In this document: one piece after another, positions 1 to 10,511 of the stretch
Layout: every line of letters starts with the position of its first letter
Position numbering within the stretch: the stretch's first letter is position 1
Origin: a virus
DNA: 12,453 nt
Virus genome (UHGV): UHGV-0283832
Direction: 5' to 3' (one strand)
Notes under the pieces: generated by a model
Told to the model about the DNA's origin: nothing
Database searches by the model: none
What the model saw: only the letters and a program-made list of their open reading frames with translations
Made by a program: the position numbers and the translations under genes

Positions 1-345
1 ACCTGAAAAGGCGTTGCTTCAGGCATAGTAGTCTCCTGAGGTTTTATTAGAATCATTATGTTTGAGCGTAGCGTTGGTAACGCTACCAGGCGCGTGAATG
101 TTACCCCATTTTATGTATGGACATGTAGTGAAAACTACAACTTTGTCGTTCGCTTTGGCATCATCTTCATTATAAAGACGGAATTTTGCATCAGCTTCTC
201 ATCAGGAAAAACAACTAAAAAATCAATCACAATACTTGTGCATTTCTTTAAACAGTTTTTTAAAACTGACTCCGGGTATGGAGCTATGGGTATTTTCTGT
301 CCCCAATGCTTTTAACAGCAATTAATTTCATAGGATGAAAGCTTA

Positions 346-1284
346 ATGCACCAATCTGGTTCTGTTTCTCTTTGTCGTTCCGCAATATCTGTTCTGGTGG
401 CTACAGCGTTATATTCACCCATAGCATTAGCATCAACTGTTGAGTATGGTGAGACAGTTGATGGTGTTGTCCTGGAAAAAGATATCCAGCTGGTTTATGG
501 GGCCGCCAATAATACGAAAATCAATCCTGGCGGAGAACAGCATATATAAGAATTTGGTGTAAGTAGTAATACTGAAATTAACGGGGGATATCAGTACATT
601 GAAATAAATGGCACCGCAGAATACTCAGTATTAAATGATGGTTATCAAATTGTTCAAATGGGTGGCGCGGTAAACCAGACTACGATCAATAATGGAGTGC
701 TACAGGTTTATGGCGCGGCGACTGATCCCACGATTAAAGGAGGGCGCTTAATTGTTGAAAAAGATGGGATTGCCGTCTTTGCCGTTATCGAAAAGGGAGG
801 ACTACTGGAGGTTAAAGCAACAGGTGATTTCAAAATATTCGTGACGGACACCGGTGCCAGCCCGGCAGCAGGAGATAACCTTACACTGGTAACAACGGGC
901 GCGGTGATGCGGCATTTACGTTGGGCAATGCCGGAAGCGTTGTTGATATCAGTACGTATGAATATACCTTGCTGGATAATGGCAACCATAGCTGGAGTCT
1001 CACAGAGAATCGCGTACAAATGCCCCCTTCAACCACGGATGTGCTGAATATGGCGGCAGCACAACCGCTGGTATTTGATGCAGAACTGGACACCGTGCGT
1101 GAGCGTCTTGGTAGCGCAAAGGGCGGCGATGTGGAGTTCGGCAATTAACAGCCGCAACAGCGTGAACACTGATGCGGGAGCTGGCTTTGAGCAAACATTG
1201 ACGGGCCTGACGCTCGGTATCGATAGTCGTTTCTCCTGTGAAGAAAGCAGCACAACTCAGGCGGGTGTAGTCTGGACGTTCTGA
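346..1284 (+). pseudogene. AIDA-I/Ag43-type autotransporter adhesin remnant, disrupted and heavily shortened
   Basis: ORF at 346 starts with a signal-peptide-like MHQSGSVSLCRSAISVLVATALYSPIALA followed by passenger-type repeats (LQVYGAATDPTIKGG, TINNGVLQVYG). An in-frame TAA sits at ~547-549, with the same frame open again through 1047. Frame changes near ~920 and ~1075. The last segment (GFEQTLTGLTLGIDSRF ... VVWTF) ends in an aromatic residue like autotransporter beta-domains. About 0.94 kb in total, versus >2.5 kb for intact family members. Its position convergent with tRNA-Pro resembles the E. coli yejO locus, but that is context inference only. Confidence 0.6.
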
Positions 1285-1350
1285 TAACAGAAAATAAACA
1301 GGCCGTGATGTGTCGCGGTCTGTTTATCGAATTAAATGCAGATATAAAAA

Positions 1351-1378: not shown

Positions 1379-1385
1379 GGATTTT

Positions 1386-1399
1386 TGGTCGCACGAGAG
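1386..1399. repeat. Island left junction: degenerate direct repeat of the tRNA-Pro 3' end (att core remnant)
   Basis: TGGTCGCACGAGAG here versus TGGTCGGCACGAGAG at 12301-12315 (1-nt deletion). Homology stops right after CACGAGAG. Confidence 0.55.
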
Positions 1400-1460
1400 T
1401 AGTTTAATTTAGCGTGTAACCGCATGATTTTAATAAATATTATTGATTCAACTTTTAAAC

Positions 1461-1485
1461 CGTATAACCAAACGTATAACTAAAA
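1461..1485. repeat. Integrase arm-type binding-site repeats (CGTATAAC), left arm
   Basis: CGTATAACCAAACGTATAACTAAAA here; nearly the same string CGTATAACTAAACGTATAACTAAAA occurs at ~12146-12170 beside the integrase gene, together with two inverted copies (AGTTATACG). Confidence 0.5.
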
Positions 1486-1626
1486 TAATTTGCTGAAAAA
1501 ATGCACAATTTAAACGGCGATTGCCCTAGCGACTTCCATGATTCTACCTGGATTTTTTTTCGCTCATTCGTTTTTAAGCTGGTGGATGTTCCCCGATATG
1601 GTGATCACCATATCGGGATTTACTCC

Positions 1627-1874
1627 AGGTTAATGTTAACCTCTGCCCTGTTAACATTTTTACCAAAAAGGTAGTTAACATTTTTTGCTCGCAACCAGAT
1701 GAATCATAAAGACAAAATCAACAACAACGCTTCATCAGGCAGTTAACATGTTAACTACTACGAAACGGTAATTTTTTCTCTGCGTGAGAGGGGGCGCGGT
1801 GTCCAGCTTATTCGTTGTTCGTGGCTAACCACTCCCCCCCCATGCCGGATTTTTTTTCCGGTTAACTGTTAATC
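1627..1874. promoter_or_regulatory. Cluster of GTTAAC-containing palindromes and repeats
   Basis: AGGTTAA-TG-TTAACCT palindrome at 1627-1642; GTTAACATTTTT direct repeats at ~1650 and ~1674; perfect 16-bp palindrome AGTTAACATGTTAACT at 1741-1756; GTTAACTGTTAATC at ~1861-1874. Confidence 0.3.
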
Positions 1875-2123
1875 AGGCTGGTGGGTTTTACCTGTTCTGT
1901 AGGAGTGGTCATTATGGCCATCCCTTATATCGTCCGAATGCCGGACGAAGGCACACATCAACCGTAACGAAAATCGTTATGGTTGCCTTGATGGTCTGCG
2001 TGGTCATTATGACCATTCAGACAATGACCTTAATCAGAATTTTTCGCTAAAAAATGACGTTGACCACGTCGTCCGGAAAACACAAAATCCCGTCGATTTT
2101 TAATTAACGGTTAAACCGTCTTT

Positions 2124-2159
2124 TGTCACGGCGTGTCACTGGCTGTCACTCTCCGTCAC
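2124..2159. repeat. Four helically phased direct repeats of TGTCAC at 10-bp spacing
   Basis: TGTCAC at ~2124, 2134 and 2144, and GTCAC at ~2155, giving exact 10-bp periodicity. An ACGGTT-A-AACCGT palindrome lies just upstream at ~2107-2119. Confidence 0.35.
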
Positions 2160-2247
2160 GATTGGGCGTGGTGATTATCACCATTTAGAATCTAAAGGGT
2201 GACGCTTCCGGCCTCCTCAAATTGAGGTTTCCGAAAATATCAACCAG

Positions 2248-2430
2248 TTACCGCCGCAACCGCTCCGGCTTCTTCCAGTGGTACGTTATTTTCTCCTTCT
2301 CCCGATACATCTCAACGCGGCGACGGTAGGCCAGCAACTCAAGAACTCTGGTTCGTATGTTGCGCATATCCACGCCATTAAGCTGGATACCATCACGGCG
2401 GATTAATCCCAGTATTTCGGCTTCTGTCAT
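2248..2430 (-). CDS. Hypothetical small protein (60 aa), basic C-terminus
   Basis: ATG start with a G-rich Shine-Dalgarno (GGGGG about 5 nt upstream). Protein MTEAEILGLIRRDGIQLNGVDMRNIRTRVLELLAYRRRVEMYREKEKITYHWKKPERLRR. It sits directly beyond the cosQ side of cos copy A. No family recognised. Confidence 0.45.
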   Translation of the reverse strand: MTEAEILGLIRRDGIQLNGVDMRNIRTRVLELLAYRRRVEMYREKEKITYHWKKPERLRR

Positions 2431-2458
2431 TGTGCCCCCATCGCTCTGATAGTCTGGT

Positions 2459-2529
2459 GTCGTCGGGTCCTTCCTGGAATTATGGCCCGTTACGGGGCGG
2501 CGACCTCGCGGTTTTTCGCTATTTATGAG
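2459..2529 (+). other. Lambda-type cos site, copy A (cosQ-like, cosN, start of cosB)
   Basis: GGGTCCTTCC...GTTACG|GGGCGGCGACCT|CGCGGTTTTTCGCTATTTATGA. This is near-identical to the phage lambda cohesive-end region as I recall it (right end ...GGGTCCTTTCCGGTGATCCGACAGGTTACG, 12-nt cohesive end GGGCGGCGACCT, left end CGCGGGTTTTCGCTATTTATGAAAA). cosN is at ~2495-2506. Confidence 0.7.
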
Positions 2530-2543
2530 CTTTTTTAGAGGGA

Positions 2544-2701
2544 GGTTGTTGTTTAATTGTTTGTCATATCCATTTGATAACTAAGTAAAAATAAAGAGCA
2601 ATACAACAACCTGATAGTGTTTTTTTGATGCTAAAAATAAAAAAATGCTAATTGAATCAAATAGTTTTAAAAAAATACGTGGTTGTTGTATTGCGTATTT
2701 G
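2544..2701. repeat. cosB-like terminase-binding repeat triad (GGTTGTTGT...) with an A-tract-rich spacer
   Basis: GGTTGTTGTTTAATTG at ~2544; inverted CAATACAACAACC at ~2599-2611; direct GGTTGTTGTATTG at ~2681-2693. A-tract-rich DNA with a weak IHF-like AATCAAatagTTT lies between copies 2 and 3. The layout mirrors lambda cosB (R3-I1-R2-R1), but the repeat sequence differs from lambda R sites. Confidence 0.45.
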
Positions 2702-2723
2702 ATGGCGTAACAGAAAGTGATTT

Positions 2724-3164
2724 TTAACTTTGCTGTTCTGTAACGACTGATTGTTCCATGCTGGCACGGCGAACGCTTACGGCATGACGCCACCCAGCCA
2801 GAAAGCCAGCCATTTTATTTCGTGCCTTGCTCACATCTTCCGGTGAATAGCCGTAAATCTGCAAACCTTCATCAAATCGATGTTCTGTTTCTTCACTGGA
2901 GTACTCGTCACGCTCAGATGAAAGCAGCCTGGCAAACATAATTTTTTCCAGCGCACTGGTTTCTACGTGATATCTGATGGCCTCAAGACGGCTTTTACCT
3001 GAAGACCAAAGCAATGTATGCCCGATGTGATAACCGCCAGACTTTCCGCGATCCGCATTAAGATACGGCATCCCCTGTTTGGTCCATGCGCGAATAGTGG
3101 TTCTGTTAACCTTGAAATGTTCAGCTATTTCCTGCTGACTTACAAAACAAGCTTTATCAATCAT
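2724..3164 (-). CDS. Lambda Nu1-like (terminase small subunit N-terminal HTH) DNA-binding protein; candidate packaging-specificity / helper-packaging redirection factor
   Basis: N-terminus VSQQEIAEHFKVNRTTIRAWTKQGMPYLNADRGKSGG aligns with lambda gpNu1 NKKQLADIFGASIRTIQNWQEQGMPVLRGGGKG. ATG with AAGGT Shine-Dalgarno. At 146 aa it is shorter than Nu1 and no large terminase follows. Cos copy B lies immediately upstream, as cos lies before Nu1 in lambda. Confidence 0.75.
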   Translation of the reverse strand: MIDKACFVSQQEIAEHFKVNRTTIRAWTKQGMPYLNADRGKSGGYHIGHTLLWSSGKSRLEAIRYHVETSALEKIMFARLLSSERDEYSSEETEHRFDEGLQIYGYSPEDVSKARNKMAGFLAGWRHAVSVRRASMEQSVVTEQQS

Positions 3165-3221
3165 AATGTTACCTTAACTGCATGGTTAAATATTAATCAA
3201 GTGGTGGTGGTGTCACCTTCA

Positions 3222-3297
3222 CGGAAAAACGTCATAAATAGCGAAAACCCGCGAGGTCGCCGCCCCGTAACGGGTCCATATGCCGGAAAGGACCCGT
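3222..3297 (-). other. Lambda-type cos site, copy B (inverted relative to copy A)
   Basis: Reverse complement reads ACGGGTCCTTTCCGGCATATGGACCCGTTACG|GGGCGGCGACCT|CGCGGGTTTTCGCTATTTATGA. cosN reverse complement (AGGTCGCCGCCC) is at ~3254-3265. About 65 bp is near-identical to copy A in inverted orientation. Confidence 0.65.
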
Positions 3298-3325
3298 AAA
3301 AAAAGCCGGATTTCTCCGGCCTTAT
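3298..3325 (-). terminator. Rho-independent terminator of the morphogenesis operon
   Basis: On the minus strand: stem GCCGGA / TCCGGC with a 4-nt loop followed by a T-run, immediately after the stop of the 137-aa gene. Confidence 0.6.
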
Positions 3326-3326
3326 G

Positions 3327-3740
3327 TCAGATGGTTTTCAGTATGCGATCGACGTCGCCTTCATCGCCCTGGTTTCTGCCGTCGTATGCCATGCCGGGTG
3401 ATACGGCTTTCGGGCTGTGCATGTCCATAAAGTTTTCAAAGGCTGCGGTAAGCTCCGGCGCAACCTTTGGGCGCTCCTGCTCTATGGTCATGTTCAGGAT
3501 TTCACGAGCATTATCGACGCTAATACATGGCACGTTTGCCATTGCACGTAACAGCGGCTGATAGTCGTTATGTTCATGAAGCGCCATAATCGCATCAGCG
3601 CGCGGCTTGTCCTGCTCTTCCAGTTTGTTGAGTTGATATACGGCCTCGTAGGTTGATAAACCTCTGTCAGCCATTGCCCGCGCTTCTGCTTTAAATTTAC
3701 TCGCCAGCGGTAGCGCCATGATGCTTTCATTCGTTGCCAT
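3327..3740 (-). CDS. Hypothetical acidic protein (137 aa), last gene of the capsid operon
   Basis: ATG with GGGGA Shine-Dalgarno 4-5 nt upstream and natural composition (MATNESIMALPLASKFKAEARAMADRG...). The competing 99-aa ORF 3494-3793 in another frame is R/W-rich and rejected. No family recognised. Confidence 0.6.
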   Translation of the reverse strand: MATNESIMALPLASKFKAEARAMADRGLSTYEAVYQLNKLEEQDKPRADAIMALHEHNDYQPLLRAMANVPCISVDNAREILNMTIEQERPKVAPELTAAFENFMDMHSPKAVSPGMAYDGRNQGDEGDVDRILKTI

Positions 3741-3752
3741 CGTTTCCCCTGC

Positions 3753-4040
3753 TTATCGCGCCAGCGGCTGAACGGATACGCCAGAACCCGCAAAGGCGGC
3801 GCATTTTTTCGCGTCAGTGTCGGCGCTCTCAGGCCAGTTTACGGCGGCGATATTAAATATCCCCGTCTTGTAACACTGTGCTGATTTCTGCTTTGACGTG
3901 TCCACGGGGTACGAGGTCAGATAAACAGCCTTCCCAGATTCCTGACCATCCCACGGCTTAAACTCGCCATTGTCCGCCAGCATCAGCGGCAAAATGTACC
4001 AGCGTCGTGGATACCTGCTGACTGCCTGCAAATAACTCAA
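3753..4040 (-). CDS. Hypothetical protein, start uncertain (TTG at 4040 or ATG at ~3983)
   Basis: ORF fills the gap between the capsid gene and the 137-aa gene. Its stop overlaps the Shine-Dalgarno of the downstream gene, suggesting operon coupling. No convincing Shine-Dalgarno for either start. Confidence 0.35.
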   Translation of the reverse strand: MSYLQAVSRYPRRWYILPLMLADNGEFKPWDGQESGKAVYLTSYPVDTSKQKSAQCYKTGIFNIAAVNWPESADTDAKKCAAFAGSGVSVQPLAR

Positions 4041-4067
4041 TGTATGGAGTGTCCATAGAATCCCCCG

Positions 4068-5123
4068 TTAAGCAATTTTGACGGTAACAAATTTGCGAAT
4101 ATCTGCCGGAACCGGCTGCGGTGCGCTGTGCGTCTGCACGTACTCAATCGCCGGATCGCCGTCCTCAATCCAGTTTTTCGGGTAGTACATGTTTTGCGTT
4201 GCGCCTGTTCTTACCGCTTCCTGATCCATAATCGCACCATAGGCCACCAGCCCTTTGTTGTTGGTGTTGCCCAGGACCAGTAAATCAGGCTCAAGGAAAT
4301 ATTTTTCTGTGCCGTCGCTGTCGGCGTATTTGCCGGCATAGACGATAAGGGCAATATCGCCCAGATAGCCTTTAAAGCTCACCACTTCGCCCAGGTTTTT
4401 ACAGGCCAGTTCTGCGGCGGATTCTGAACCACGGGAAAGATCGTACAGCTCACGGAATTTTTTAAAGCTGCGTAACGTGCGCCATACCTCAACGCCCATA
4501 ATCATGACGTTTGCGGGGCAACCAGCCTGATCAGCATAAAGCTCGATGTCATAGATTGGATCGTGTGTTTCCTTATCTGCCTCTGACCACTTTTTACCCG
4601 GTCCCTGTCTGGCGATATTTTTACTTGGGATCTTCCAGTCGATTTCATAGCGTTCTATGCCTTCGCCCTCAATGATGTTTTTTCCGGTCGTTATCGCATT
4701 CACCGCCAGCCATTCCACGCGCGCTTTAATGGCGTTTATCTGGCGGCGCATGTTGCCAGTAATCAGGCGCATACGGCGGTAGGTAGGGTCGTTAAGCTGT
4801 GCCGGATCTTCTCCAGCCATGCGCATTATTGTTTTTAATGGATCGATTTCGTGTTTTGGCTTCATGTAGCCAGGGCGAATAATGCTGGTTTCGTACCCTT
4901 TATCGCGCTGAACCTGGCTACCAACCATAGGCGAACAAAACGCCGACATAGTGACTTCTTCAATATCCAGGTTATCTAACATGATGTCCTGTGTGTTGAA
5001 TGTCGCCACGTTCGGGAAAAACAGCGCGGTAAACAGCGGACTAAATTTAAATTCCGCAATATCCTCGCGATTCAGGTACGCGAAAAGCTGGTGTGTGTTA
5101 AGTGCCATTGCGTTGACTGCCAT
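4068..5123 (-). CDS. Major capsid protein, lambda gpE-like (HK97 fold)
   Basis: 351 aa with collinear motifs matching lambda gpE across the whole length: FKFSPLF, PGYMKPKHE, EDPAQLNDPTYRRMR, WSEADKETHDP, DIELYA, RSFKKF, RGSESA, KNLGEVVSFKGYLGDIALIVYAGKY, FLEPDLLVLGNT, YPKNWIEDGDPAIEY, QTHSAP. Start overlaps the upstream ORF stop (TAATG). Confidence 0.85.
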   Translation of the reverse strand: MAVNAMALNTHQLFAYLNREDIAEFKFSPLFTALFFPNVATFNTQDIMLDNLDIEEVTMSAFCSPMVGSQVQRDKGYETSIIRPGYMKPKHEIDPLKTIMRMAGEDPAQLNDPTYRRMRLITGNMRRQINAIKARVEWLAVNAITTGKNIIEGEGIERYEIDWKIPSKNIARQGPGKKWSEADKETHDPIYDIELYADQAGCPANVMIMGVEVWRTLRSFKKFRELYDLSRGSESAAELACKNLGEVVSFKGYLGDIALIVYAGKYADSDGTEKYFLEPDLLVLGNTNNKGLVAYGAIMDQEAVRTGATQNMYYPKNWIEDGDPAIEYVQTHSAPQPVPADIRKFVTVKIA

Positions 5124-5329
5124 TATTCACCCCCATGAGTCTGATTTATGCCCAGCGCCGCGCGTAAATAGGAGCGTACCTGCCAGCCTGTTGACGGCTC
5201 AACCATCGCCAGCGGATCAAGTCCTGCCGCAATGCCTGCTTTTACGTTCTGCTGGTGGCGTTCCTTGAGCGCCTTCACGATGTCGGGGCTTATGTACACC
5301 GAAACACCGCCTTTTCTCTCTTCAGCCAT
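5123..5329 (-). CDS. Hypothetical small protein (68 aa), first gene of the capsid operon
   Basis: ATG with AGAGGA Shine-Dalgarno; translationally coupled to the capsid gene. No family recognised; not similar to lambda gpD or Nu3 as far as I can recall. Confidence 0.5.
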   Translation of the reverse strand: MAEERKGGVSVYISPDIVKALKERHQQNVKAGIAAGLDPLAMVEPSTGWQVRSYLRAALGINQTHGGE

Positions 5330-5364
5330 AGTAAGAAATTCCTCTTCGACTTAAAAAATCATAA

Positions 5365-5413
5365 CTGGATGTTCATCCAGCTCTGATTATAATCAGGATT
5401 GCATTTTGTGCAA
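5365..5413 (-). promoter_or_regulatory. Candidate sigma70 promoter with overlapping palindromic operators for the capsid operon
   Basis: Minus strand reads TTGCAC - 16 nt - TATAAT. The -10 lies inside the perfect 14-bp palindrome CTGATTATAATCAG (~5383-5396). CTGGATG-TT-CATCCAG (~5365-5380) lies at about +1, and TTGCA-ttttg-TGCAA at ~5399-5413. Confidence 0.35.
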
Positions 5414-5493
5414 TGATATTGAGTTACATTGCAAATTATGAAATGATTATCCCGATCATGTGTGTCAGTGCACCAAAAAACCTCATATGCAAA

Positions 5494-5531
5494 AGCCCGA
5501 TAAGCCACCTCTGACCTTATCGGGCTTTTTT
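5494..5531. terminator. Stem-loop terminator (10-bp stem GCCCGATAAG / CTTATCGGGC followed by T7)
   Basis: Long perfect stem followed by TTTTTTT on the plus strand and flanked by an A-run on the other side. Probably insulates the capsid promoter from the replication operon. Confidence 0.5.
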
Positions 5532-5537
5532 TGGGCG

Positions 5538-5559
5538 CAAAAAAGCCGGATTGCTCCGG
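5538..5559 (-). terminator. Rho-independent terminator of the replication operon
   Basis: Minus strand: GCCGGA-GCAA-TCCGGC followed by TTTTTT, about 25 nt after the PerC-like stop. Confidence 0.55.
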
Positions 5560-5583
5560 CTGTGTGGTGTGGTTCTGGTATTC

Positions 5584-5832
5584 CTACTCTGCTAATTTGC
5601 TCAGCCCCATGTCTGCGTAAGTGCGATTTACTGCATTTCTCAGGTCTGCATAGTTCTCCGTTGGCGGCTCCGGTGGCCTCTGTGCCTTCCTGGAACATTC
5701 CAGCCGTCGCATCGTAACCTGATGCCGTTCCTTGTCTGTCTCCACCAGTTGCATGACTTCACCCCATCGTGCCGCCGCCCTCCGGTAAAAGCCTTTTGCC
5801 TCTAGTTCCTCCGCTATGCGGTCATGTACCAT
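5584..5832 (-). CDS. PerC-family transcriptional regulator-like protein
   Basis: Taken from the internal ATG (MVHDRIAEELEAKGFYRRAAARWGEVMQ...) with GGTGAGG Shine-Dalgarno. The AE-LE-KG-YRRAA-RW signature resembles PerC/Pch-type regulators. The track ORF extends further 5' to 5952, but that part overlaps the SSB gene. Confidence 0.55.
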   Translation of the reverse strand: MVHDRIAEELEAKGFYRRAAARWGEVMQLVETDKERHQVTMRRLECSRKAQRPPEPPTENYADLRNAVNRTYADMGLSKLAE

Positions 5833-5842
5833 CCTCACCCCC

Positions 5843-6253
5843 TCAGAACGGAATATCATCACCGTAAGGGTCATCGCCTCCCGCTGGTGGCTGATTACCC
5901 TGTGTGCCTGTGGTTTTGCGTCTGTTCCCGCCAGGACGTGCCGCACGGGCACTGATTACGCTGTCTGCAATAACCTGATAACCCTGCCGCGTTTCCCCGT
6001 TCTGTCCGGTCCACTGGCTGACCTGCATCGTGCCGGATACGCTGGCAACGTCGCCTTTTTGATGTTTAGCCAGGAAGTCGGCCTGCTTACCAAATGCGAT
6101 GACCGATAGCCATAACGTCGCCTGCCCATCCTGCGCCTGACTACATGGCAACGATACCGCCATACGCGCCAGCGTCATCGGTGTGCCCTTGCTGGTCTGT
6201 TTTACCTGCGGGTCGTCCACCAGCCGCCCGTAAGCGGCTATCTGTGCTGTCAT
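5843..6253 (-). CDS. ssb: Single-stranded DNA-binding protein (short SSB)
   Basis: OB-fold-like N-terminal region (IAAYGRLVDDPQV...LARMAVSL...LWLSVIAFGKQADFLAKHQKGDVASVSGTMQVSQWTGQNGETRQGYQVIADSV), Gly/Pro-rich linker and the canonical acidic tail ending DDIPF. ATGA overlap with the upstream ORF. Confidence 0.8.
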   Translation of the reverse strand: MTAQIAAYGRLVDDPQVKQTSKGTPMTLARMAVSLPCSQAQDGQATLWLSVIAFGKQADFLAKHQKGDVASVSGTMQVSQWTGQNGETRQGYQVIADSVISARAARPGGNRRKTTGTQGNQPPAGGDDPYGDDIPF

Positions 6254-6528
6254 GATTCCACCTCTCCGGTTTTAACGTTGATGGTTGTTACCTGTTCCGC
6301 TTCGGCAATCTCCCGCTCTGTCAGCGTGGCAAAATTTGCCGCCGTCGTGGTCATGAATGCGCTTATCAGTTCGGGATGTGCTTTCGCGTATCCTTCCCCC
6401 GCGTGGCGGTCTATCGTTCTGATTGCCACCTTTAAAGCGTGCTCTGTCATGTCTAACGCGCGATATTTCGGTTCTGTTCTGTCTCTGCGTTTTTTGAGTG
6501 ATTTATTAAATTTCCCTGAAGTGTGCAT
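6250..6528 (-). CDS. Hypothetical protein (92 aa) between the iteron origin and ssb
   Basis: ATG with a G-rich Shine-Dalgarno about 14 nt upstream; translationally coupled to ssb. No family recognised. Confidence 0.5.
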   Translation of the reverse strand: MHTSGKFNKSLKKRRDRTEPKYRALDMTEHALKVAIRTIDRHAGEGYAKAHPELISAFMTTTAANFATLTEREIAEAEQVTTINVKTGEVES

Positions 6529-6585
6529 ATTTATTTTTACCCCCTCGTTTAAAAAGTTTTGAGTTGTGCCTCCCCTTGTCTACCT

Positions 6586-6806
6586 TATCTACCTTAGTGG
6601 CCCTCATACCAGTAATGGCGCGGCTTTCAGCGGGGTAGAGTGCTTTTATCCACTATCTACCCCGTGTCTACCTCCCTGTCTGATTCAGGTAAAATCAGGT
6701 AGAGAGGGTAGATAGTGGGTAGACAGTAAAAAAAAGCTATCTACCTAACTTAATGCACTGAATTAAATGTATTTTTCTTTACTCAGGTAGACAGGGTAGA
6801 CAGCAA
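6586..6806. repeat. Iteron-type replication origin (GGTAGACAG family repeats plus AT-rich segment)
   Basis: At least 11 copies of GGTAGA(C/T)AG or its complement CT(G/A)TCTACC in both orientations (for example ~6586, 6597, 6634, 6651, 6665, 6697, 6706, 6717, 6738, 6786, 6795), with tandem GGTAGACAGGGTAGACAG at 6786-6803. AT-rich stretch at ~6727-6780 and a DnaA-box-like TTATCCACT at ~6646-6654. Immediately downstream of the primase gene. Confidence 0.75.
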
Positions 6807-6816
6807 TTACAAAAAA

Positions 6817-8571
6817 TTATAAAAACGCGTCGCACTCGTCTGTTGTTATTGCGTTAGTCTGCGTTACCCCCTTAACTTTCCGCGTAATATATTCATGTCC
6901 GTAAACTTTTGCGGCAGGCTTCATAGCCTTTCCAAAGTCATTTACGTTTAGCGGTTTGCTCCTGCCTGCGTATGCCATAAACGCCAGATAGACGCGGTAA
7001 AGGCTGTTCCTGGTCGTGTACTTCACTGAATCGCCACCGCCCCCCATCATCAGGCCGCGCGCTTCCTCCAGAAAATTCAGGAACTGGCAAAACTCAATAA
7101 CCGGATCCGTCTGTTGCTTTATTGCCAGTGCTTCATCACCGTCACGCTGTTCCAGTAGTAAAGCCCGTGCCTTCTCAGGGGCGGTAAAGTTCGCCAGCAA
7201 TCGGCGGATAATGACAGGGATTTCAGCCGCAATCTTTTCCGGTAGCTCCCTGTCTTTTTCGGCCTCACTGACGATATTGTCGAAACGGAAAATTACGCGA
7301 CGACGTGACACACCTCCGGCCCGTTCGGTGAATATCATCGGATTGTTATTGGTTGCCAGCACCACCGCCCTGATTACCGCCGTAAAACGCTTTTCATATT
7401 TCGGGTTAATTTCCACGGGGTCGCCGCCCGTGATTTTCTTGATGCCCGTTCCTTCGCCTGTATATTTCGGCTGGTCAGCCAGGACGATAAGACGACTCCC
7501 GACAACCTGCGCACGTCCACCAGCATCATCAAGCGATGTCATTTCAGCGCTTACCGTGTTCTGTTTCCCTGCCAGAAGGCTGGCTATGTGCGTGAATGTA
7601 CTTTTACCGCTCCCGCCATCTCCGGTGGCCTCAATAAACATCTGCCAGTCGTACCGGTTCGCCATAATCATGTACAGCGCGGCACATATACGCATCATCT
7701 TGCGCGGGTCTTTTCCGGCTGCGTGCTCAAGCCATTTATGAAAGTTTGGCGCGTTATCGCGGATGTTCTCCCCTGGTGCTGGTGGCGTGTACTCAATGCC
7801 GTTGTGCGTGGTGATCCAGCTCTCCGGCGTGTGCGGGGAAAATTCCCCCGTTTTCAGGTCAAGCGCACCATTGGCGAACGGCAGCAAATCGCCGGACGGC
7901 TCGCCCATTGGTTCGGCAATAACTTTTAACGCTTCCACGGCGTTATTGATTACGCGCTTGCTGAAAGTGGCCCTGTGCTCTGAATAGATCGCCACCATTT
8001 CGCGGCTAAGTTCCATTGTGCTGACCGGACACCATACCCCGCCGCGCCATACGTGAACGATTTCACTTTCAGGATGTACGCAAACGCCATCAAAGCGATC
8101 GGCAAGCAGCTGCGCGCGCTCACTGTCCGCCATCTGCGAAAGTTGCGCCTTTTGCTTTACCGGAAGCTCAATGACCAGACCATCAGAAAGATTCTGGCGC
8201 TCACGGGCCAGATATTCGCGCCAGTTCTCCACCTTCTGACCGTGCATACCCTCAGGATAAAAATTTGCATCCTGTACGCCTGCCGCCGCCAGCTTCTGAC
8301 CAATCGCCTTTATCATTACTGGCGCAAGATATCCGGCCCTGAATATGCGCACGGATTTTCTGCCTTCCGGCACAATTTGCAGCTTATCCAGTTCGGATAA
8401 CTGCTGCTCCCCAAGCCACACAGGAGGCTCATTATCTCCGGCCATACGCGCGTCATGTTCCTGCCATTGTTTTGCGTGTGACCAGGCATCACTACCCGCA
8501 AAAATAATGACTTCTGTTTCTTTGTGTTTTATGCCGCGTGACTGCTGTTTTACGTTCGGTGCCAGTTTCAT
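6817..8571 (-). CDS. Replication initiator: P4-family primase / helicase-type NTPase (pri-rep)
   Basis: 584 aa. Walker A GDGGSGKST (encoded at ~7596-7630) with the surrounding FIEATGDGGSGKSTFTHIASLLAG typical of the phage/plasmid P4-family primase C-terminal NTPase domain. An N-terminal ~300 aa domain precedes it. ATGA overlap with the upstream ORF; followed by the iteron array. Confidence 0.85.
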   Translation of the reverse strand: MKLAPNVKQQSRGIKHKETEVIIFAGSDAWSHAKQWQEHDARMAGDNEPPVWLGEQQLSELDKLQIVPEGRKSVRIFRAGYLAPVMIKAIGQKLAAAGVQDANFYPEGMHGQKVENWREYLARERQNLSDGLVIELPVKQKAQLSQMADSERAQLLADRFDGVCVHPESEIVHVWRGGVWCPVSTMELSREMVAIYSEHRATFSKRVINNAVEALKVIAEPMGEPSGDLLPFANGALDLKTGEFSPHTPESWITTHNGIEYTPPAPGENIRDNAPNFHKWLEHAAGKDPRKMMRICAALYMIMANRYDWQMFIEATGDGGSGKSTFTHIASLLAGKQNTVSAEMTSLDDAGGRAQVVGSRLIVLADQPKYTGEGTGIKKITGGDPVEINPKYEKRFTAVIRAVVLATNNNPMIFTERAGGVSRRRVIFRFDNIVSEAEKDRELPEKIAAEIPVIIRRLLANFTAPEKARALLLEQRDGDEALAIKQQTDPVIEFCQFLNFLEEARGLMMGGGGDSVKYTTRNSLYRVYLAFMAYAGRSKPLNVNDFGKAMKPAAKVYGHEYITRKVKGVTQTNAITTDECDAFL

Positions 8572-8855
8572 TTTTTACCCCCTGCGACCAGCATTTCACG
8601 AATTTTGCGGATATGACTTGCTGCACGTTTCTGATTTACGGCTTTACGATGGCCCACCAGCGTGAAATCACGCCGGAACTGATAAACAGGCATCACGCAG
8701 TCATATTCGTAGCCATCACGGCGGTAAGTGATGCGCCGTTCTGCCACGCCTTTTATCGTTACCGTGCCGCCATAGTTATCCCGGAAAATATCGCCGGGGC
8801 GGATTTCAGGCTGAGAGAAGTCACTGGCAGTAAAGCCAGAATTTTTCTTTTTCAT
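8568..8855 (-). CDS. Hypothetical protein (95 aa), translationally coupled to the primase
   Basis: ATG start with AGGAAA upstream; stop overlaps the primase start (ATGA). No family recognised. Confidence 0.55.
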   Translation of the reverse strand: MKKKNSGFTASDFSQPEIRPGDIFRDNYGGTVTIKGVAERRITYRRDGYEYDCVMPVYQFRRDFTLVGHRKAVNQKRAASHIRKIREMLVAGGKK

Positions 8856-8860
8856 GGTTT

Positions 8861-9061
8861 TTATTTTCCTGTCAGTGATTCAAGTTTTATTCCGGCACGA
8901 ATACAGGCCTCAGAAAAAAAAGCCAGAGAACCAACAACCTCATTATTTCTAAGGCGGCATTGTGATTTCACTTTCCCTTTATCGAGAAATATCAAAACGC
9001 GTCCCGTATAATCTGACGGCACATTAAGAACTACAGGTAAGTGCGCTTCATAATTGTGCAT
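8861..9061 (-). CDS. Hypothetical small protein (66 aa)
   Basis: ATG with GGGGG Shine-Dalgarno about 8 nt upstream. Start lies within the last 14 nt of the upstream 69-aa gene and the stop is 5 nt before the next ATG, consistent with a tightly coupled operon. Could still be spurious. Confidence 0.35.
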   Translation of the reverse strand: MHNYEAHLPVVLNVPSDYTGRVLIFLDKGKVKSQCRLRNNEVVGSLAFFSEACIRAGIKLESLTGK

Positions 9062-9257
9062 GGTGCGCCCCCTGACGAATACGGGCGGCGAATACCATCA
9101 CGCAGCCATCAGGAGATTGCTGACGCGCTTCCTGTTCGCTGGTGGCCTCAATGGTAATCACGCGCGGTTGTGCCGTGCTCAGGGCGATAAAACGCCAGAT
9201 GTATTTATTCAGGTTGTACGAGTCCCGCCCTTGCGGGTGTATGGTATAATTTCTCAT
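9048..9257 (-). CDS. Small protein (69 aa), possibly Icd-like (host cell division inhibitor-like)
   Basis: Internal ATG of the long track ORF 9048-10124, with GAGG Shine-Dalgarno 5 nt upstream. Protein MRNYTIHPQGRDSYNLNKYIWRFIALSTAQPRVITIEATSEQEARQQSPDGCVMVFAARIRQGAHHAQL. The Icd-like call rests on a vague memory of similar small proteins in P4-like islands, so it is weak. Confidence 0.4.
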   Translation of the reverse strand: MRNYTIHPQGRDSYNLNKYIWRFIALSTAQPRVITIEATSEQEARQQSPDGCVMVFAARIRQGAHHAQL

Positions 9258-9346
9258 AGCTGCCTCGATAATCTTGCTATCGTTGGTGGTTAGAAGCCCC
9301 GTTACTGCTCCTACAGTGCGGGGTTTCGTCGTTTCTGCACCTTGCA

Positions 9347-9440
9347 TTAACAAGGTGTAAGTAACTTTATTTATAGGTGGCTTACATGTCAATGCTTTTA
9401 TGTAAGACTTTTTATGTGTATATTGTCTTACACTTTCATT
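9347..9440. promoter_or_regulatory. Divergent promoter/operator region between the replication operon and the plus-strand cassette
   Basis: Palindrome CACCTTG-cattaa-CAAGGTG at ~9347-9366; inverted repeat CTTACAT ... ATGTAAG at ~9391-9417 and a further CTTACA copy at ~9436; TATATT -10-like element at ~9429-9434. Confidence 0.35.
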
Positions 9441-9453
9441 GAGAGGATTACAG

Positions 9454-9759
9454 ATGGCTACAGGTTCAAAAAACGCAAAATCACAATCACTGACAGCTCG
9501 GATCCCGCATGATGTTATTGAAGGCATGGAATCCGTAAAACTGGACGGTGAAAGCAACGCCGGATTCATAGTAACCGCCATGCGCGGTGAAATCGCCCGC
9601 CGCCAGGCAGAAGGAAGCGGAGAAAACCCCCTGATTTCTTCGCTCGATGCACTGGCGCAGGTGGAAAAACTCGGAATCAAAGCCGCCGAGGAGATCGGGC
9701 AGCTCGTCACTGTCGCACGTGAAGAACTCCAGCGCCGCAAGACCAAAGAACCAGAGTAA
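9454..9759 (+). CDS. Ribbon-helix-helix-like small DNA-binding protein (101 aa)
   Basis: ATG at 9454 with GAGAGGA Shine-Dalgarno 6 nt upstream (the track ORF starts earlier at a TTG). The N-terminal segment SLTARIPHDVIEGMESVK fits the strand-helix pattern of RHH (CopG/Arc/ParD-like) proteins; the C-terminal half is helical and charged. The RHH call is pattern-based only. Confidence 0.55.
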   Translation: MATGSKNAKSQSLTARIPHDVIEGMESVKLDGESNAGFIVTAMRGEIARRQAEGSGENPLISSLDALAQVEKLGIKAAEEIGQLVTVAREELQRRKTKEPE

Positions 9760-9816
9760 TCACCATCAGCGCCGTGGTGTAAGGTATTACGGCGCATTGC
9801 TATGCAGGACAACACA

Positions 9817-9990
9817 ATGACCGATAAAGAATTGACCAAAACATTATCACCGGCACGGAAAAGACGGCGCAGAAAGATAGAGCATGAATCAGAAAGATTC
9901 GCGCCATGTGCTTTTGCCCTTGAGCAATTCCTTAAAGAATACAGGGAAAAGCGCTCATTGCAGGTATGGCAACGAACTGAACCAGACTGA
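9817..9990 (+). CDS. Hypothetical highly basic mini-protein (57 aa)
   Basis: ATG at 9817 with AGGA Shine-Dalgarno 7 nt upstream (the track ORF starts at an earlier ATG at 9802 that lacks one). Protein MTDKELTKTLSPARKRRRRKIEHESERFAPCAFALEQFLKEYREKRSLQVWQRTEPD. Followed by a plus-strand terminator. Confidence 0.45.
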   Translation: MTDKELTKTLSPARKRRRRKIEHESERFAPCAFALEQFLKEYREKRSLQVWQRTEPD

Positions 9991-10085
9991 TTGCATTGCC
10001 CACCAGCCTGATAGCGGCTATCATCCCCGTGCTTATGTTTGGGATCATATACACATAAGGCGCAGCGGGTTAATTGTTCAGAAAG

Positions 10086-10112
10086 GCGGCTCCATATCGG
10101 GGCCGCTTTTTT
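10086..10112 (+). terminator. Rho-independent terminator of the plus-strand cassette
   Basis: GC-rich stem (GCGGC ... GCCGC) followed by TTTTTT about 100 nt after the 57-aa ORF stop. Confidence 0.5.
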
Positions 10113-10138
10113 CGTGTTTGTCATATCTGTGATACCCG

Positions 10139-10345
10139 TTAAGCAGCCGTTCCGCGTGCTTCCTGTTCGCGTTCTTTCTGCCAGGCCAACACATCATCCT
10201 CATACCATCCGCGACGGCGTAAACCAACGCGAAAACCCTGCGGAAATTCTCCGGCGTTGATCATGCTTTGCAGCGTGCTGTCTGCCTTGATGTGGATAAT
10301 TTTTTTTACTTCCTGGCGAAAGATAATTTTTCTGATTGCTTCCAT
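10139..10345 (-). CDS. alpA: AlpA-family excisionase / transcriptional regulator
   Basis: 68 aa, ATG with AAGGT Shine-Dalgarno. The C-terminal FPQGFRVGLRRRGWYEDDVLAWQ matches the AlpA/Xis-like winged-helix signature (FP-P-KLG-R--GW---E---W). Confidence 0.8.
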   Translation of the reverse strand: MEAIRKIIFRQEVKKIIHIKADSTLQSMINAGEFPQGFRVGLRRRGWYEDDVLAWQKEREQEARGTAA

Positions 10346-10363
10346 CGTGATTTACCTTGTGAA

Positions 10364-10448
10364 TCCGGTGTATTCCGGTGACAAATACGGTAAATCATCG
10401 GATATGGGTAAAAACAGTTCCCACCGTTTTTAAACGGTATACACCGTT
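10364..10448 (-). promoter_or_regulatory. alpA leader/promoter with CACCGGA direct repeats and ACCGTTT/AAACGGT palindromes
   Basis: On the sense strand, two CACCGGA(A/T) repeats 10 bp apart lie immediately upstream of the alpA Shine-Dalgarno (~10364-10380). Overlapping palindromes ACCGTTT-TT-AAACGGT-ATAC-ACCGTTT lie at ~10423-10448. Confidence 0.35.
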
Positions 10449-10475
10449 TTTATATTGATGATTTGAAATGGAATT

Positions 10476-10500: not shown

Positions 10501-10511
10501 TTCCAGGATTG

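What the first reader, a model, noticed from the sequence alone, without database searches (positions are those of the whole stretch)
1592..2195. ORF-free ~850-bp island arm packed with operator-like palindromes and phased direct repeats
Between the left junction and the first island gene there is no ORF of 60 aa or more, yet the region holds at least four dyad-symmetric sites sharing the half-site TGGT(C/G)AT (one a perfect 26-bp palindrome), at least five GTTAAC-centred palindromes or repeats, four TGTCAC repeats at exact 10-bp phasing, and several short hairpins (CGTCCG-aatgc-CGGACG, AACGA-aaa-TCGTT). This density suggests a regulatory or structural hub: binding arrays for one or more dimeric regulators, possibly helper-encoded, an architectural element for excision or packaging, or a structured noncoding RNA. 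I cannot assign any of the motifs to a known regulator.
Basis: seen in the sequence. Interest (0 to 1): 0.6.

Follow-up and report, generated by a model that had tools for sequence, protein, structure and literature searches.

The report
Borrowed phage packaging site in satellite arm
The gene-free end of this E. coli phage-satellite island is a patchwork of non-coding modules. The best explained is a copy of the DNA-packaging (cos) region of Shiga-toxin-type lambdoid phages, which may let a second family of helper phages package the island.

Summary
Positions 1592-2195 hold about 10 distinct perfect inverted repeats where about 1 is expected, 6 GTTAAC where 0.25 is expected, and GTCAC at 2125, 2135, 2145 and 2155.

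The island (about 1386-12320, at tRNA-Pro) is a Gram-negative PICI satellite of the EcCICFT073 family. It encodes an Rpp protein and two inverted lambda-type cosN sites.

Positions 1620-1845 hold all but one of the GTTAAC motifs. This stretch is homologous to the intergenic region between the HNH endonuclease and small-terminase genes of BP-4795/Stx-type lambdoid phages. It shares the layout of the experimentally mapped SfV/SfI cos: a G-run, about 25 nt, (T)CYGGAC, then a 10-nt GC-rich cohesive end (predicted here at 1791-1800). The GTTAAC units are therefore most likely helper small-terminase sites (cosB-like), not operators.

The block is an insertion found in satellites of 50 of 5426 E. coli genomes. 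Most relatives lack it precisely.

The rest is a satellite-specific terminal module, always next to a conserved 93-aa gene:
- the 26-bp palindrome;
- three 15-bp TGGTSATTATSACCA palindromes;
- the GTCAC array;
- two Chi sites;
- terminator hairpins.

Three PICI classes share this module. It is absent from phages, and what binds it is unknown.

Verdict: partly explained, a new variant of a known kind, of moderate interest.

The parts
1386..1399 (.). attR core: a duplicated 3' end of tRNA-Pro, lacking one G (TTGGTCG-CACGAGAG against TTGGTCGGCACGAGAG at 12299-12314). It marks the left end of the island.
1458..1485 (.). Integrase arm-type repeats (CGTATAAC x2). Four copies lie in the other arm at 12115-12172. 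This att arm (about 1400-1566) is specific to the integration site and is not shared with islands at other sites.
   Evidence: (D14)
1578..1585 (+). Chi site GCTGGTGG (first of two in the arm)
1592..1617 (.). 26-bp perfect palindrome centred on GATC. Most related islands carry an imperfect version (…GATATGGGGATCCCCATA…). A similar imperfect palindrome lies just upstream of the TerS start codon in phage BP-4795.
1620..1845 (-). cos-like block, homologous to the HNH-to-TerS intergenic region of BP-4795/Stx-type lambdoid phages. Read on the - strand it runs G-run, cosN-like core, then GTTAAC repeats.
1633..1755 (-). Five GTTAACAT units (1633-1640 inverted, 1650-1657, 1674-1681, and 1742-1755 as an overlapping inverted pair). 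All are conserved base for base in the phages. Inferred cosB-like sites for the helper small terminase.
1762..1806 (-). Most conserved core, GAAACGGTAATTTTTTCTCTGCGTGAGAGGGGGCGCGGTGTCC(AG). The predicted 10-nt cohesive-end sequence ACCGCGCCCC (- strand) is at 1791-1800, preceded by CTGGAC (1801-1806). In SfV the arrangement is TCCGGAC + TGCCCGCCCC.
1834..1841 (-). C8 run, which is G8 on the strand read towards the GTTAAC repeats. It matches the G-run that lies about 24-29 nt upstream of the cos cut region in SfV, HK97 and BP-4795.
1845..1884 (+). Hairpin CCGGA-T8-CCGG (the T run varies from 7 to 9 in relatives), a GTTAAC, and the 17-mer TTAATCAGGCTGGTGGG that contains the second Chi site (1877-1884). 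This is the most conserved piece of the arm across about 70 related islands.
1903..1926 (.). Copy 1 of a 24-nt direct repeat, containing the 15-bp palindrome TGGTCATTATGgCCA (1906-1920)
1930..1985 (.). Two hairpins (1930-1948 and 1959-1985). The segment 1922-1999 is absent from E. coli 042 and other relatives, with the breakpoints inside the 24-nt repeats.
1991..2025 (.). Copy 2 of the repeat: the palindrome TGGTCATTATGACCA (2001-2015), extended to 17-nt imperfect arms. This is the copy most widely kept in relatives; the central base varies between T and C.
   Evidence: (I3)
2031..2090 (-). Terminator module: hairpin GACGTGGTCAACGTC + T6 on the - strand (2070-2045). About 80% identical to a 60-bp stretch just downstream of the lysozyme gene R in Stx phages.
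2107..2119 (+). Hairpin ACGGTTAAACCGT followed by CTTTTGT (terminator-like on the + strand)
2125..2183 (.). Unit of four GTCAC repeats at 10-bp phasing (2125-2159), 9 nt, then the palindrome TGGTGATTATCACCA (2169-2183). The array, alone or followed by a palindrome, recurs in many relatives at about 78% overall identity. It was found in no phage.
2248..2430 (-). First island gene: a 60-aa in-frame deletion variant of a conserved 93-aa protein (phrog_1561, function unknown) that always accompanies the arm

Best explanation
The arm is the non-coding terminal module of an E. coli phage-inducible chromosomal island (PICI). It consists of separable parts.

(1) Positions 1620-1845 are a captured copy of the cos region of lambdoid phages that package with an HNH endonuclease plus a TerS/TerL terminase (BP-4795, Stx1/Stx2 phages and many E. 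coli prophages). Read on the minus strand it runs: G-run, about 26 nt, CTGGAC, a 10-nt GC-rich sequence where the cohesive ends would be cut (1791-1800), an A-tract, then five GTTAACAT repeats. In the phages these repeats lie between the cut region and the small-terminase gene.

Inferred mechanism: when such a phage is induced in the same cell, its small terminase binds the GTTAACAT repeats. TerL and HNH cut at the core, and island concatemers are packaged leftwards through att and int. The island already uses lambda-type helpers through Rpp and its two lambda-type cosN sites, so this would add a second helper family.

(2) The remaining motifs are satellite-specific repeats in a module that always sits between a conserved 93-aa gene and the att arm. 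They are the 26-bp palindrome, three copies of a 24-nt repeat carrying a 15-bp palindrome, the GTCAC x4 array, two Chi sites, and convergent terminator hairpins. The module is shared by PICIs with different integrases, replicases and packaging systems. Its repeats are the endpoints of segmental deletions. The GTCAC array followed by a palindrome looks like a cooperative protein-binding unit, but its binder is unknown.

Shown: homology, conservation pattern, distribution and architecture. Inferred: cutting, terminase binding, packaging, and any role of part (2).
For: The motifs are real and non-random.

Identity of the island:
- Integrase at tRNA-Pro, an AlpA-like protein, a D5-type primase, SSB, a PerC-like protein, gpE-like capsid and gpD-like decoration proteins.
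- An Rpp homologue (PDB 6HLK RppC, E=5.7e-31).
- Two inverted lambda cosN sites. Window 2495-2528 is 97% identical to lambda bases 1-34. Two cosN sites plus Rpp match published EcCICFT073 biology (PMC6092414; PMC6739421).

Homology of the block:
- Window 1632-1806 matches 94 phage records at 76-80% identity. In the two phages inspected the match lies between the HNH endonuclease and TerS genes, upstream of TerS and TerL.
- In the alignment, every GTTAAC unit, a 43-nt core and the C-run are invariant while the spacers differ.
- The 67-bp core is 92% identical to copies in more than 1000 E. coli genomes, with up to 7 per genome. The copies inspected are prophage copies.

Anchor to experiment:
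- The cohesive end of SfI/SfV is the 10-mer TGCCCGCCCC (PMC3636060).
- In SfV it is preceded by TCCGGAC, with a G-rich run 24 nt upstream, just after the HNH gene.
- BP-4795 has G9, 25 nt, TCCGGAC, ACCGCCCCCC. The window has G8, about 26 nt, CTGGAC, ACCGCGCCCC.
- HK97 has G9, then 29 nt, before GACCGCCGCC at its genome end.

The block is an insertion. Most relatives go from the palindrome straight to the hairpin and lack exactly this block. The block joined to the satellite hairpin occurs in 50 of 5426 genomes.

The E. coli 042 island has the block but no lambda cosN, no Rpp and no annotated terminase. The block is therefore its only visible candidate packaging site.

Terminal module: it is shared by an Rpp-type island, a cf-PICI with its own HNH/TerS/TerL/portal and the 042 type. 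The distance from the Chi anchor to the 93-aa gene is 185-751 bp and never holds a gene.
Against: - No phage of the BP-4795 group has experimentally mapped ends in the records I could read. All 94 matching records are prophage-ordered, so 'cos' rests on position and on similarity of layout to SfV/SfI and HK97. The small terminases of those phages belong to other families (no similarity between BP-4795 TerS and HK97 TerS).
- The block is only about 79% identical to the phage copies overall, and nothing shows it is cut or packaged in the island.
- Most related islands do without it, and this island already has two lambda-type cos sites, so the block could be a passenger remnant.
- The capsid protein of the 042 island is not related to that of BP-4795, so there is no matching capsid/cos pair.
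- For part (2), no binder, transcript or function could be assigned. A presence/absence test found no associated island protein.
Confidence: 0.6

Rival explanations
1. Operator array. The dyad-symmetric sites and phased repeats are binding sites for one or more dimeric transcription regulators, island- or helper-encoded, that control island induction or late expression.
For: The three 15-bp sites have 7-bp half-sites around one variable central base (T or C in relatives), which is typical of sites for dimeric proteins. GTCAC x4 at one helical turn, followed by a palindrome at a fixed distance, recurs in relatives. The motifs are strongly non-random.
Against: - The GTTAAC sites are accounted for by homology to a phage HNH-TerS intergenic region.
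- The arm lies downstream of all island genes, not at a promoter. The promoter scan was at chance level (5 found, 4.0 expected).
- The palindromes occur nowhere else in the island and not in the phage collection.
- No island protein co-occurs with them.
- Many relatives lack them.
- The 26-bp palindrome has a different half-site spacing from the 15-bp sites, so one dimeric regulator cannot serve them all.
Confidence: 0.2
2. RNA-level element: a structured non-coding RNA, or a small hydrophobic toxin peptide with an antisense RNA (type I toxin-antitoxin-like), encoded at 1880-2130.
For: - All three 15-bp palindromes read in one frame as VVIM(A/T)I or VVIITI inside small + strand ORFs: 1881-1967, 1979-2050 (MVALMVCVVIMTIQTMTLIRIFR) and 2123-2188.
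- Deletions between the repeats keep that frame.
- Terminator-like hairpins converge at 2045-2125.
- Both strands fold well (z = -4.8 and -3.4).
Against: - The ORFs are not conserved. Start codons and lengths differ, the T7-T9 run shifts the upstream frame, and in the commonest variant (12 loci) the frame is only VVIMTMS*.
- There are no Shine-Dalgarno sequences (read directly from the sequence).
- Substitutions are mostly non-synonymous.
- There is no Rfam, NCBIfam or Pfam match.
- Good folding on both strands is expected of palindromic DNA.
- Homologues are 93-97% identical, so covariation is uninformative.
Confidence: 0.08
3. Recombination debris. The arm is mostly functionless remains of repeated module exchange between satellites and phages, and its motif density is a by-product of duplicated junction sequences.
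For: - The structure is mosaic, with whole segments present or absent and breakpoints at the 24-nt repeats.
- Relatives carry repeated gene-3'-end remnants (AGTTACCGCC), which match the ends of Roi/Bro-type genes of lambdoid phages.
- A 60-bp piece is shared with the region downstream of phage gene R.
- The arm length varies from 185 to 751 bp.
- Two Chi sites could drive such exchange.
Against: - Within the cos-like block the motifs, not the spacers, are conserved between satellites and phages that are only about 79% identical overall. That argues for selection.
- The 17-mer with Chi, the palindrome at 1592-1617 and the 93-aa gene are kept together in about 70 islands of three classes.
- The GTCAC phasing is exact wherever the array is present.
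Confidence: 0.12
4. Replication origin or partition site. The GTCAC iterons plus palindromes are bound by the island's initiator.
For: Short direct repeats phased at one helical turn, next to an inverted repeat, resemble the layout of iterons plus an operator.
Against: - The arm is 99% identical in strain MS 21-1, whose island has a different replication module: a RepA-family helicase with DUF4222 instead of the D5-type primase.
- An origin-like region, with many TCTACC/GGTAGA repeats and a long inverted repeat, lies at about 6575-6805 directly after the primase gene. Published PICIs have their ori in that position (PMC10111431).
Confidence: 0.03

Closest known systems
cos sites of HNH-dependent lambdoid/HK97-like phages (SfV/SfI and HK97, experimentally mapped; BP-4795/Stx phages by homology)
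   Same: Window 1620-1845 is homologous to the HNH-to-TerS intergenic region of BP-4795-type phages. It shares with SfV and HK97 the order G-run, about 24-29 nt, GC-rich cut region, then A/T tract. With SfV it also shares the (T)CYGGAC heptamer before a 10-nt C/G-rich sequence.
   Different: In the island the block is not flanked by HNH and terminase genes. The cut site is predicted, not mapped. The GTTAACAT repeat array is specific to the BP-4795 group, whose TerS belongs to Pfam Terminase_2. HK97 TerS recognises one 15-bp site (PMC11331095).
Satellites that carry their helper's cos site: P4 (P2 cos), SaPIbov5 (cos of HNH-dependent phages phi12/phiSLT), EcCICFT073 (lambda-type cos1/cos2 with Rpp)
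   Same: The strategy is the same: the satellite carries a copy of the helper's packaging site so that the helper terminase packages it. This island also has the EcCICFT073 features, namely Rpp and two lambda-type cosN sites.
   Different: Here a second, unrelated cos type sits in the same island about 700 bp from the lambda-type site. It is an insertion in the terminal non-coding arm and is present in only about 1% of E. coli genomes. The papers I read describe no HNH-type cos copy in an Rpp-type E. coli PICI. I did not read the primary SaPIbov5 paper; the comparison rests on the summary.
lambda cosB (R3-I1-R2-R1 sites for gpNu1)
   Same: Several short repeats in mixed orientation lie next to the cut site, on the side that is packaged first. 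They are presumably bound by the small terminase.
   Different: The sequences are unrelated and the TerS family is different. No IHF consensus lies inside the block; the only one in the arm is at 2238.
Chi-rich lambdoid phages without recombination modules (phage LLS; PMC12315714)
   Same: The island holds 12 Chi octamers in about 9.3 kb, where 0.39 are expected from shuffles. Two are in the arm.
   Different: In LLS the Chi sites are nearly all in one orientation and cluster at one end. Here they are split 6+/6- and spread out. That paper does not mention satellites.

Membership tests
Gram-negative PICI of the EcCICFT073 / Rpp type (the island as a whole) | Integrase next to a tRNA att site, AlpA-like regulator, primase/replicase with a downstream ori, unidirectional genes, size 10-20 kb | tested here: met
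   Integrase 10841-12100 beside tRNA-Pro, AlpA-like 10139-10345, D5-type primase 6817-8571, ori-like repeats at about 6575-6805, all genes on the - strand, about 11 kb
Gram-negative PICI of the EcCICFT073 / Rpp type (the island as a whole) | An Rpp protein, and lambda-type cosQ/cosN with a non-lambda cosB; two cos sites | tested here: met
   The 146-aa protein matches RppC (6HLK, E=5.7e-31). GGGCGGCGACCT lies at 2495 (+) and 3265 (-).
cos site of HNH-dependent terminase phages | Sequence homology to a phage region lying between the HNH endonuclease and small-terminase genes | tested here: met
cos site of HNH-dependent terminase phages | Layout shared with experimentally mapped cos sites (G-run, spacer, GC-rich 10-nt cohesive-end sequence) | tested here: met
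   SfV/SfI and HK97. This is resemblance of layout plus short identical words, not alignment-grade homology to those two phages.
cos site of HNH-dependent terminase phages | Staggered cleavage giving cohesive ends at the site, in the phage and in the island | not testable with these tools
   All matching phage records are prophage-ordered. No virion-end data are available.
cos site of HNH-dependent terminase phages | Specific binding of the small terminase to the adjacent repeats | not testable with these tools
   Inferred only, from position and from conservation of the GTTAACAT units
Type I toxin-antitoxin locus | A conserved small hydrophobic ORF with a start codon and ribosome-binding site, kept intact in homologues | tested here: not met
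   Frames, starts and lengths are not conserved. The commonest variant encodes only VVIMTMS*. No family match.
Described RNA families (Rfam 15) | Match to a covariance model at or near the gathering score | tested here: not met
   The only hit in the arm is Atu_C9 at 16.3 bits against a gathering score of 40, E=0.93
Iteron-type replication origin of the island | The repeats co-vary with the initiator/replicase module | tested here: not met
   The arm is 99% identical between islands with different replicases. The ori-like repeats are elsewhere.
att-site arm (integrase/excisionase binding) | Lies within about 200 bp of the core and is specific to the integrase/att type | tested here: not met
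   The finding starts about 200 bp from the core. The arm-type repeats are at 1458-1485. The module from 1566 onward is shared by islands at clpS/cspD and at phoQ that have other integrases.
Chi (RecBCD recombination hotspot) | The exact octamer GCTGGTGG | tested here: met
   1578-1585 and 1877-1884, both on the + strand. Activity was not tested.

The most novel reading that the evidence does not exclude
One small satellite carries packaging signals for two mechanistically different helper terminases. One is the lambda type (12-nt 5' overhang), redirected by its own Rpp. The other is the HNH-dependent type (10-nt 3' overhang) used by many Stx-converting and other E. coli prophages. Both helper families could then mobilise the island, including Shiga-toxin phages. 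In addition, the satellite-only GTCAC-array/palindrome unit and the unusually dense Chi sites would form an undescribed cis-acting system of PICI ends, for example protection or processing of concatemer ends.
Probability: 0.3. Interest if true: 0.65.

Novelty: new variant of a known kind. Interest (0 to 1): 0.45.

Why it matters
PICIs spread virulence and anti-phage defence genes, and which phages can mobilise an island sets how far it travels.

Carrying a helper's cos site is a known strategy (P4, SaPIbov5, EcCICFT073). An Rpp/lambda-type E. coli PICI that also carries a copy of the cos region of HNH-dependent Stx-type prophages would have a widened helper range. That would link its transfer to induction of Shiga-toxin phages. 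The conserved core of the block is found in more than 1000 of 5426 complete E. coli genomes.

The idea is directly testable with cosmid-style transduction assays.

The work also gives a predicted cos for a large, medically relevant phage group, anchored on the mapped SfV/SfI ends. It further defines a conserved terminal module (93-aa gene, Chi-containing 17-mer, palindrome) common to three PICI classes, whose function is unknown.

Tried and rejected
- **Rfam scan** of the whole window at E<=1: nothing credible in the arm.
- **Promoter/terminator scan:** promoter-like sites at chance level, a few terminator-like hairpins.
- **Small-ORF / type I toxin reading** of the 15-bp palindromes: attractive because all three encode VVIxxI in frame, but rejected because the ORFs are not conserved and match no family.
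- **Origin of replication:** rejected.
- **Integrase or excisionase arm sites:** rejected for 1566 onward.
- **Cargo hot spot:** rejected, because the spacer between the Chi anchor and the 93-aa gene is 185-751 bp and never holds a gene. One relative does carry a type I restriction system where the 93-aa gene and late genes sit in this island.
- **Search for the binder by association:** ORF clusters from 48 loci were tested against presence of the GTCAC array, the palindrome or the cos block. Only spurious ORFs and lineage effects came out.
- **The 93-aa protein:** no Pfam, NCBIfam or PDB sequence match. I did not predict its structure.
- **BLAST of the GTCAC/palindrome unit** against phages gave no match. 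Against plasmids there were only a few partial hits, the longest without any annotated feature.
- **Scan of one genome per species** for the 17-mer: only Shigella flexneri besides chance hits.
- **Palindrome pattern in IMG/VR:** apart from about 35 satellites, the hits are in line with my rough chance estimate.
- **RNA covariation:** homologues are too similar, and folding z-scores are similar on both strands.
- **Matching capsid and cos** between the 042 island and BP-4795: no similarity.
- **HK97 TerS against BP-4795 TerS:** unrelated.
- **IHF site inside the cos-like block:** none.
- **Literature:** I found no description of an HNH-type cos copy in Rpp-type E. coli PICIs, nor of the cos of BP-4795-type phages.
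Full report
**1. What the window is**

The window holds a roughly 11-kb island inserted at tRNA-Pro(GGG) (12301-12377, minus strand). It sits between fragments of the yejO autotransporter gene and yejM.

The att core TTGGTCGGCACGAGAG at the tRNA end recurs at 1385-1399 with one G missing.

All island genes are on the minus strand:
- integrase, 10841-12100;
- AlpA-like protein, 10139-10345;
- D5-type primase-helicase, 6817-8571;
- SSB and a PerC-like activator;
- lambda gpE-like major capsid protein, 4068-5123;
- gpD-like decoration protein;
- a 146-aa helix-turn-helix protein, 2724-3164;
- a 60-aa ORF, 2248-2430.

The 146-aa protein is a homologue of RppC (PDB 6HLK, E=5.7e-31).

The lambda cohesive-end sequence GGGCGGCGACCT occurs twice, in inverted orientation, on either side of the rpp gene (2495-2506 on +, 3254-3265 on -). 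Window 2495-2528 is 97% identical to the first 34 bases of lambda.

Two lambda-type cosN sites plus Rpp are the published hallmarks of EcCICFT073-type Gram-negative PICIs (PMC6092414; PMC6739421; PMC9026076). The island is therefore a phage satellite of a known family. The finding concerns its gene-free far end.

**2.

Against 1000 dinucleotide-preserving shuffles of 1592-2195:

| Measure | Observed | Shuffle mean |
|---|---|---|
| Perfect inverted repeats (arm >=6, spacer <=5) | 17 overlapping calls, about 10 distinct sites | 1.08 (none of 1000 reached 17) |
| GTTAAC | 6 | 0.25 |
| TGGTSAT/ATSACCA half-sites | 7 | 0.23 |

GTCAC lies at 2125, 2135, 2145 and 2155. The arm is the most palindrome-dense stretch of the window. 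No ORF there exceeds 57 aa.

Two corrections:
- The fourth phased repeat is CGTCAC, not TGTCAC.
- The 26-bp palindrome has a different half-site spacing from the three 15-bp palindromes. Those three are also copies of a 24-nt direct repeat (family D1).

**3. The arm is modular**

I compared it with the same island in strain MS 21-1 (99% identical arm, but a different replicase and a Nu1-family TerS in place of Rpp). I also compared it with an island in E. coli 042 at another site, with two islands next to phoQ, and with about 70 satellite contigs from IMG/VR. The comparison gives five parts.

- (a) About 1400-1566 is specific to the integration site. It carries integrase arm-type repeats (CGTATAAC), which recur near the integrase gene.
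- (b) From 1566 onward the sequence is shared by islands with other integrases.
- (c) The palindrome at 1592-1617, the hairpin CCGGA-T8-CCGG and the 17-mer TTAATCAGGCTGGTGGG are found in most of the related islands.
- (d) Positions 1620-1845 are present in only a few islands and are precisely absent from the rest.
- (e) The stretch between the 17-mer and the first gene is 185-751 bp long and never contains a gene. It differs by whole segments whose endpoints lie in the 24-nt repeats.

The first gene is a 33-aa in-frame deletion variant of a conserved 93-aa protein (phrog_1561, function unknown). That protein accompanies the arm in almost every locus where enough flanking sequence was available.

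The module occurs in Rpp-type islands, in the 042 type, and in a capsid-forming PICI that has its own capsid, protease, portal, HNH, TerS and TerL genes.

**4. The inserted block is a phage cos region**

Window 1632-1806 matches 94 phage records at 76-80% identity. Among them are BP-4795, YYZ-2008, and many Stx1a, Stx2a and Stx2c phages.

In the two phages inspected, the match lies in the gap between an HNH endonuclease gene and the small-terminase gene, followed by the large terminase. Pfam assigns HNH, Terminase_2 and TerL_ATPase/TerL_nuclease. Phages that package with an HNH partner keep their cos in that position. HK97 and SfV both have it there, as the literature also describes (PMC11331095; bioRxiv 2022.09.08.507074).

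The following are invariant between satellites and phages, while the spacers between them differ:
- all five GTTAACAT units;
- a 43-nt core, GAAACGGnAATTTTTTCTCTGCGTGAGAGGGGGnGCGGTGTCC;
- a C-run.

The 67-bp core is 92% identical to copies in more than 1000 of 5426 complete E. coli genomes, with up to 7 per genome. The copies I inspected lie in prophages.

**5. Anchor to mapped cohesive ends**

Direct sequencing of SfI virion DNA ends gave a 10-nt cohesive-end sequence, TGCCCGCCCC. SfV differs from it at one base (PMC3636060).

Joining the ends of the SfV record gives this order: HNH stop, GGGGAGGGGCGGG, 24 nt, TCCGGAC, TGCCCGCCCC, a T-tract, then TerS.

Read towards the terminase gene:

| Element | Layout |
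|---|---|
| BP-4795 | G9, 25 nt, TCCGGAC, ACCGCCCCCC, CTCTCACGCAGAG, A6 |
| Window (minus strand) | G8 (1841-1834), about 26 nt, CTGGAC (1806-1801), ACCGCGCCCC (1800-1791), then the same continuation |
| HK97 | G9, then 29 nt, before GACCGCCGCC at its right end |

HK97 TerS binds 15-29 bp beyond the cut, at a G plus an A-tract.

On this basis I predict that the cut region of the block is at 1791-1800. I also predict that the GTTAACAT units (1755-1633, on the side packaged first) are the small-terminase sites, the equivalent of cosB. This is inferred from homology and layout. No cleavage or binding has been shown.

**6. Is the block used by the island?**

Points in favour:
- Conservation falls on the motifs rather than being uniform.
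- The block occurs in islands with different late modules: Rpp, Nu1-type TerS, a type I restriction cargo, and the 042 type.
- The 042 island has the block but no lambda-type cosN within 2 mismatches, no Rpp and no annotated terminase.

Points against:
- Only 50 of 5426 genomes have the block joined to the satellite hairpin.
- This island already has lambda-type cos sites.
- The 042 capsid protein is unrelated to that of BP-4795.

I put the phage region being cos at about 0.85, and the island copy being functional at about 0.6.

**7. The rest of the arm**

The three 15-bp palindromes, the GTCAC array and the 26-bp palindrome are found only in these satellites. I found the GTCAC/palindrome unit in no phage. 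Apart from a few hits that look like this same arm, the longest without any annotated feature, plasmids gave nothing either.

They occur nowhere else in the island and co-occur with no island protein.

Relatives with about 78% overall identity keep GTCAC x3-4 at exact 10-bp phase, in several followed after 8-9 nt by a palindrome. That looks like a cooperative protein-binding unit.

The central base of the 15-bp palindrome varies between T and C while the half-sites stay.

The palindrome at 1592-1617 always keeps a central GATC. Its two main forms, TGGTGATCACCA and TGGGGATCCCCA, differ by a symmetric double change, but one-sided intermediates exist.

A coding reading (small hydrophobic peptides) fails on conservation. 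An origin reading fails because islands with different replicases share the arm, and the ori-like repeats lie at about 6575-6805.

A 60-bp piece (2031-2090) carries a minus-strand terminator and is shared with the region downstream of gene R in Stx phages. Relatives also carry repeated remnants of gene 3' ends that match Roi/Bro-type genes. Part of the arm is therefore recombination debris.

**8. Chi**

The 17-mer that is the best conserved piece of the arm contains Chi (GCTGGTGG, 1877-1884). A second Chi lies at 1578-1585.

The window has 12 Chi octamers, all inside the island, six on each strand, where 0.39 are expected from shuffles. Chi-rich lambdoid phages have been described, but that paper does not mention satellites. 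I did not test whether this density is general among PICIs.

**9. Verdict**

The GTTAAC arrays are best explained as a packaging signal copied from HNH-dependent Stx-type phages, not as operators. The other repeats belong to a conserved, satellite-specific terminal module whose binder and role remain open.

The strategy of carrying a helper's cos is known. New here are two unrelated cos types combined in one Rpp-type island, and a predicted cos for the BP-4795 phage group.

Noticed in passing
window 1578-10920 (12 sites: + strand 1578, 1877, 5251, 5883, 7778, 9138; - strand 4244, 6217, 7517, 8654, 10000, 10913): Chi octamers (GCTGGTGG) are extremely dense and confined to the island. There are 12, where 0.39 are expected from shuffles, split 6/6 between the strands. 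From each of the two inverted lambda-type cos sites, the first Chi met when moving away from the rpp gene is in the orientation RecBCD recognises (1884 from 2495; 4244 from 3265).
   Followed up: partly
window 2461-2530 and 3228-3300: Two inverted repeats of about 65 bp, each containing a lambda-type cosQ/cosN, bracket the rpp gene. In strain MS 21-1 the same inverted pair brackets a 180-aa Nu1-family small terminase instead of Rpp (L001 12073-12137 and 12941-13012). The segment between the inverted cos copies therefore behaves as an exchangeable cassette.
   Followed up: partly
window 2248-2430 (-): The first island gene is a 33-aa in-frame deletion (between two ..RR repeats) of a conserved 93-aa protein, phrog_1561. 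That protein has no Pfam, NCBIfam or PDB match. It is present next to the arm in Rpp-type, capsid-forming and 042-type PICIs.
   Followed up: partly
window about 6575-6805: Directly after the primase gene there are many TCTACC/GGTAGA repeats and a long inverted repeat (6641-6738). Rfam scores the inverted repeat weakly as microRNA-like hairpins. This is probably the island's replication origin.
   Followed up: no
window 1385-1399 and 12299-12314; also 12190-12300: The attR copy of the tRNA-Pro 3' end lacks one G relative to the intact tRNA. Such damage has been reported as typical of PICIs (PMC10111431). Four ATCCGGTG repeats lie between the integrase arm-type sites and the tRNA.
   Followed up: no
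window 1850-1857 and relatives (L008, L103, L115): The T run in the loop of the hairpin CCGGA-Tn-CCGG varies from 7 to 9 among islands.
   Followed up: no
window 1-1290 against L001 7959-10895: The yejO autotransporter gene next to the island is broken into fragments here. About 1 kb is missing and there are internal stops. It is intact in strain MS 21-1.
   Followed up: no
L206 (E. coli JNEC-KY176, next to phoQ): A related island carries the cos-like block (89% identical) followed by a complete type I restriction-modification system in place of the usual 93-aa gene and late genes.
   Followed up: no
L008 7250-7500 and window 2230-2268: Repeated copies of ...ATATCAAnnAGTTACCGCC (an IHF-consensus match plus the last codons of a gene) are stacked in some arms. 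They match the 3' ends of roi/ant/kilA-type genes of lambdoid phages at 92% over 36 bp. They look like footprints of repeated gene replacement.
   Followed up: partly
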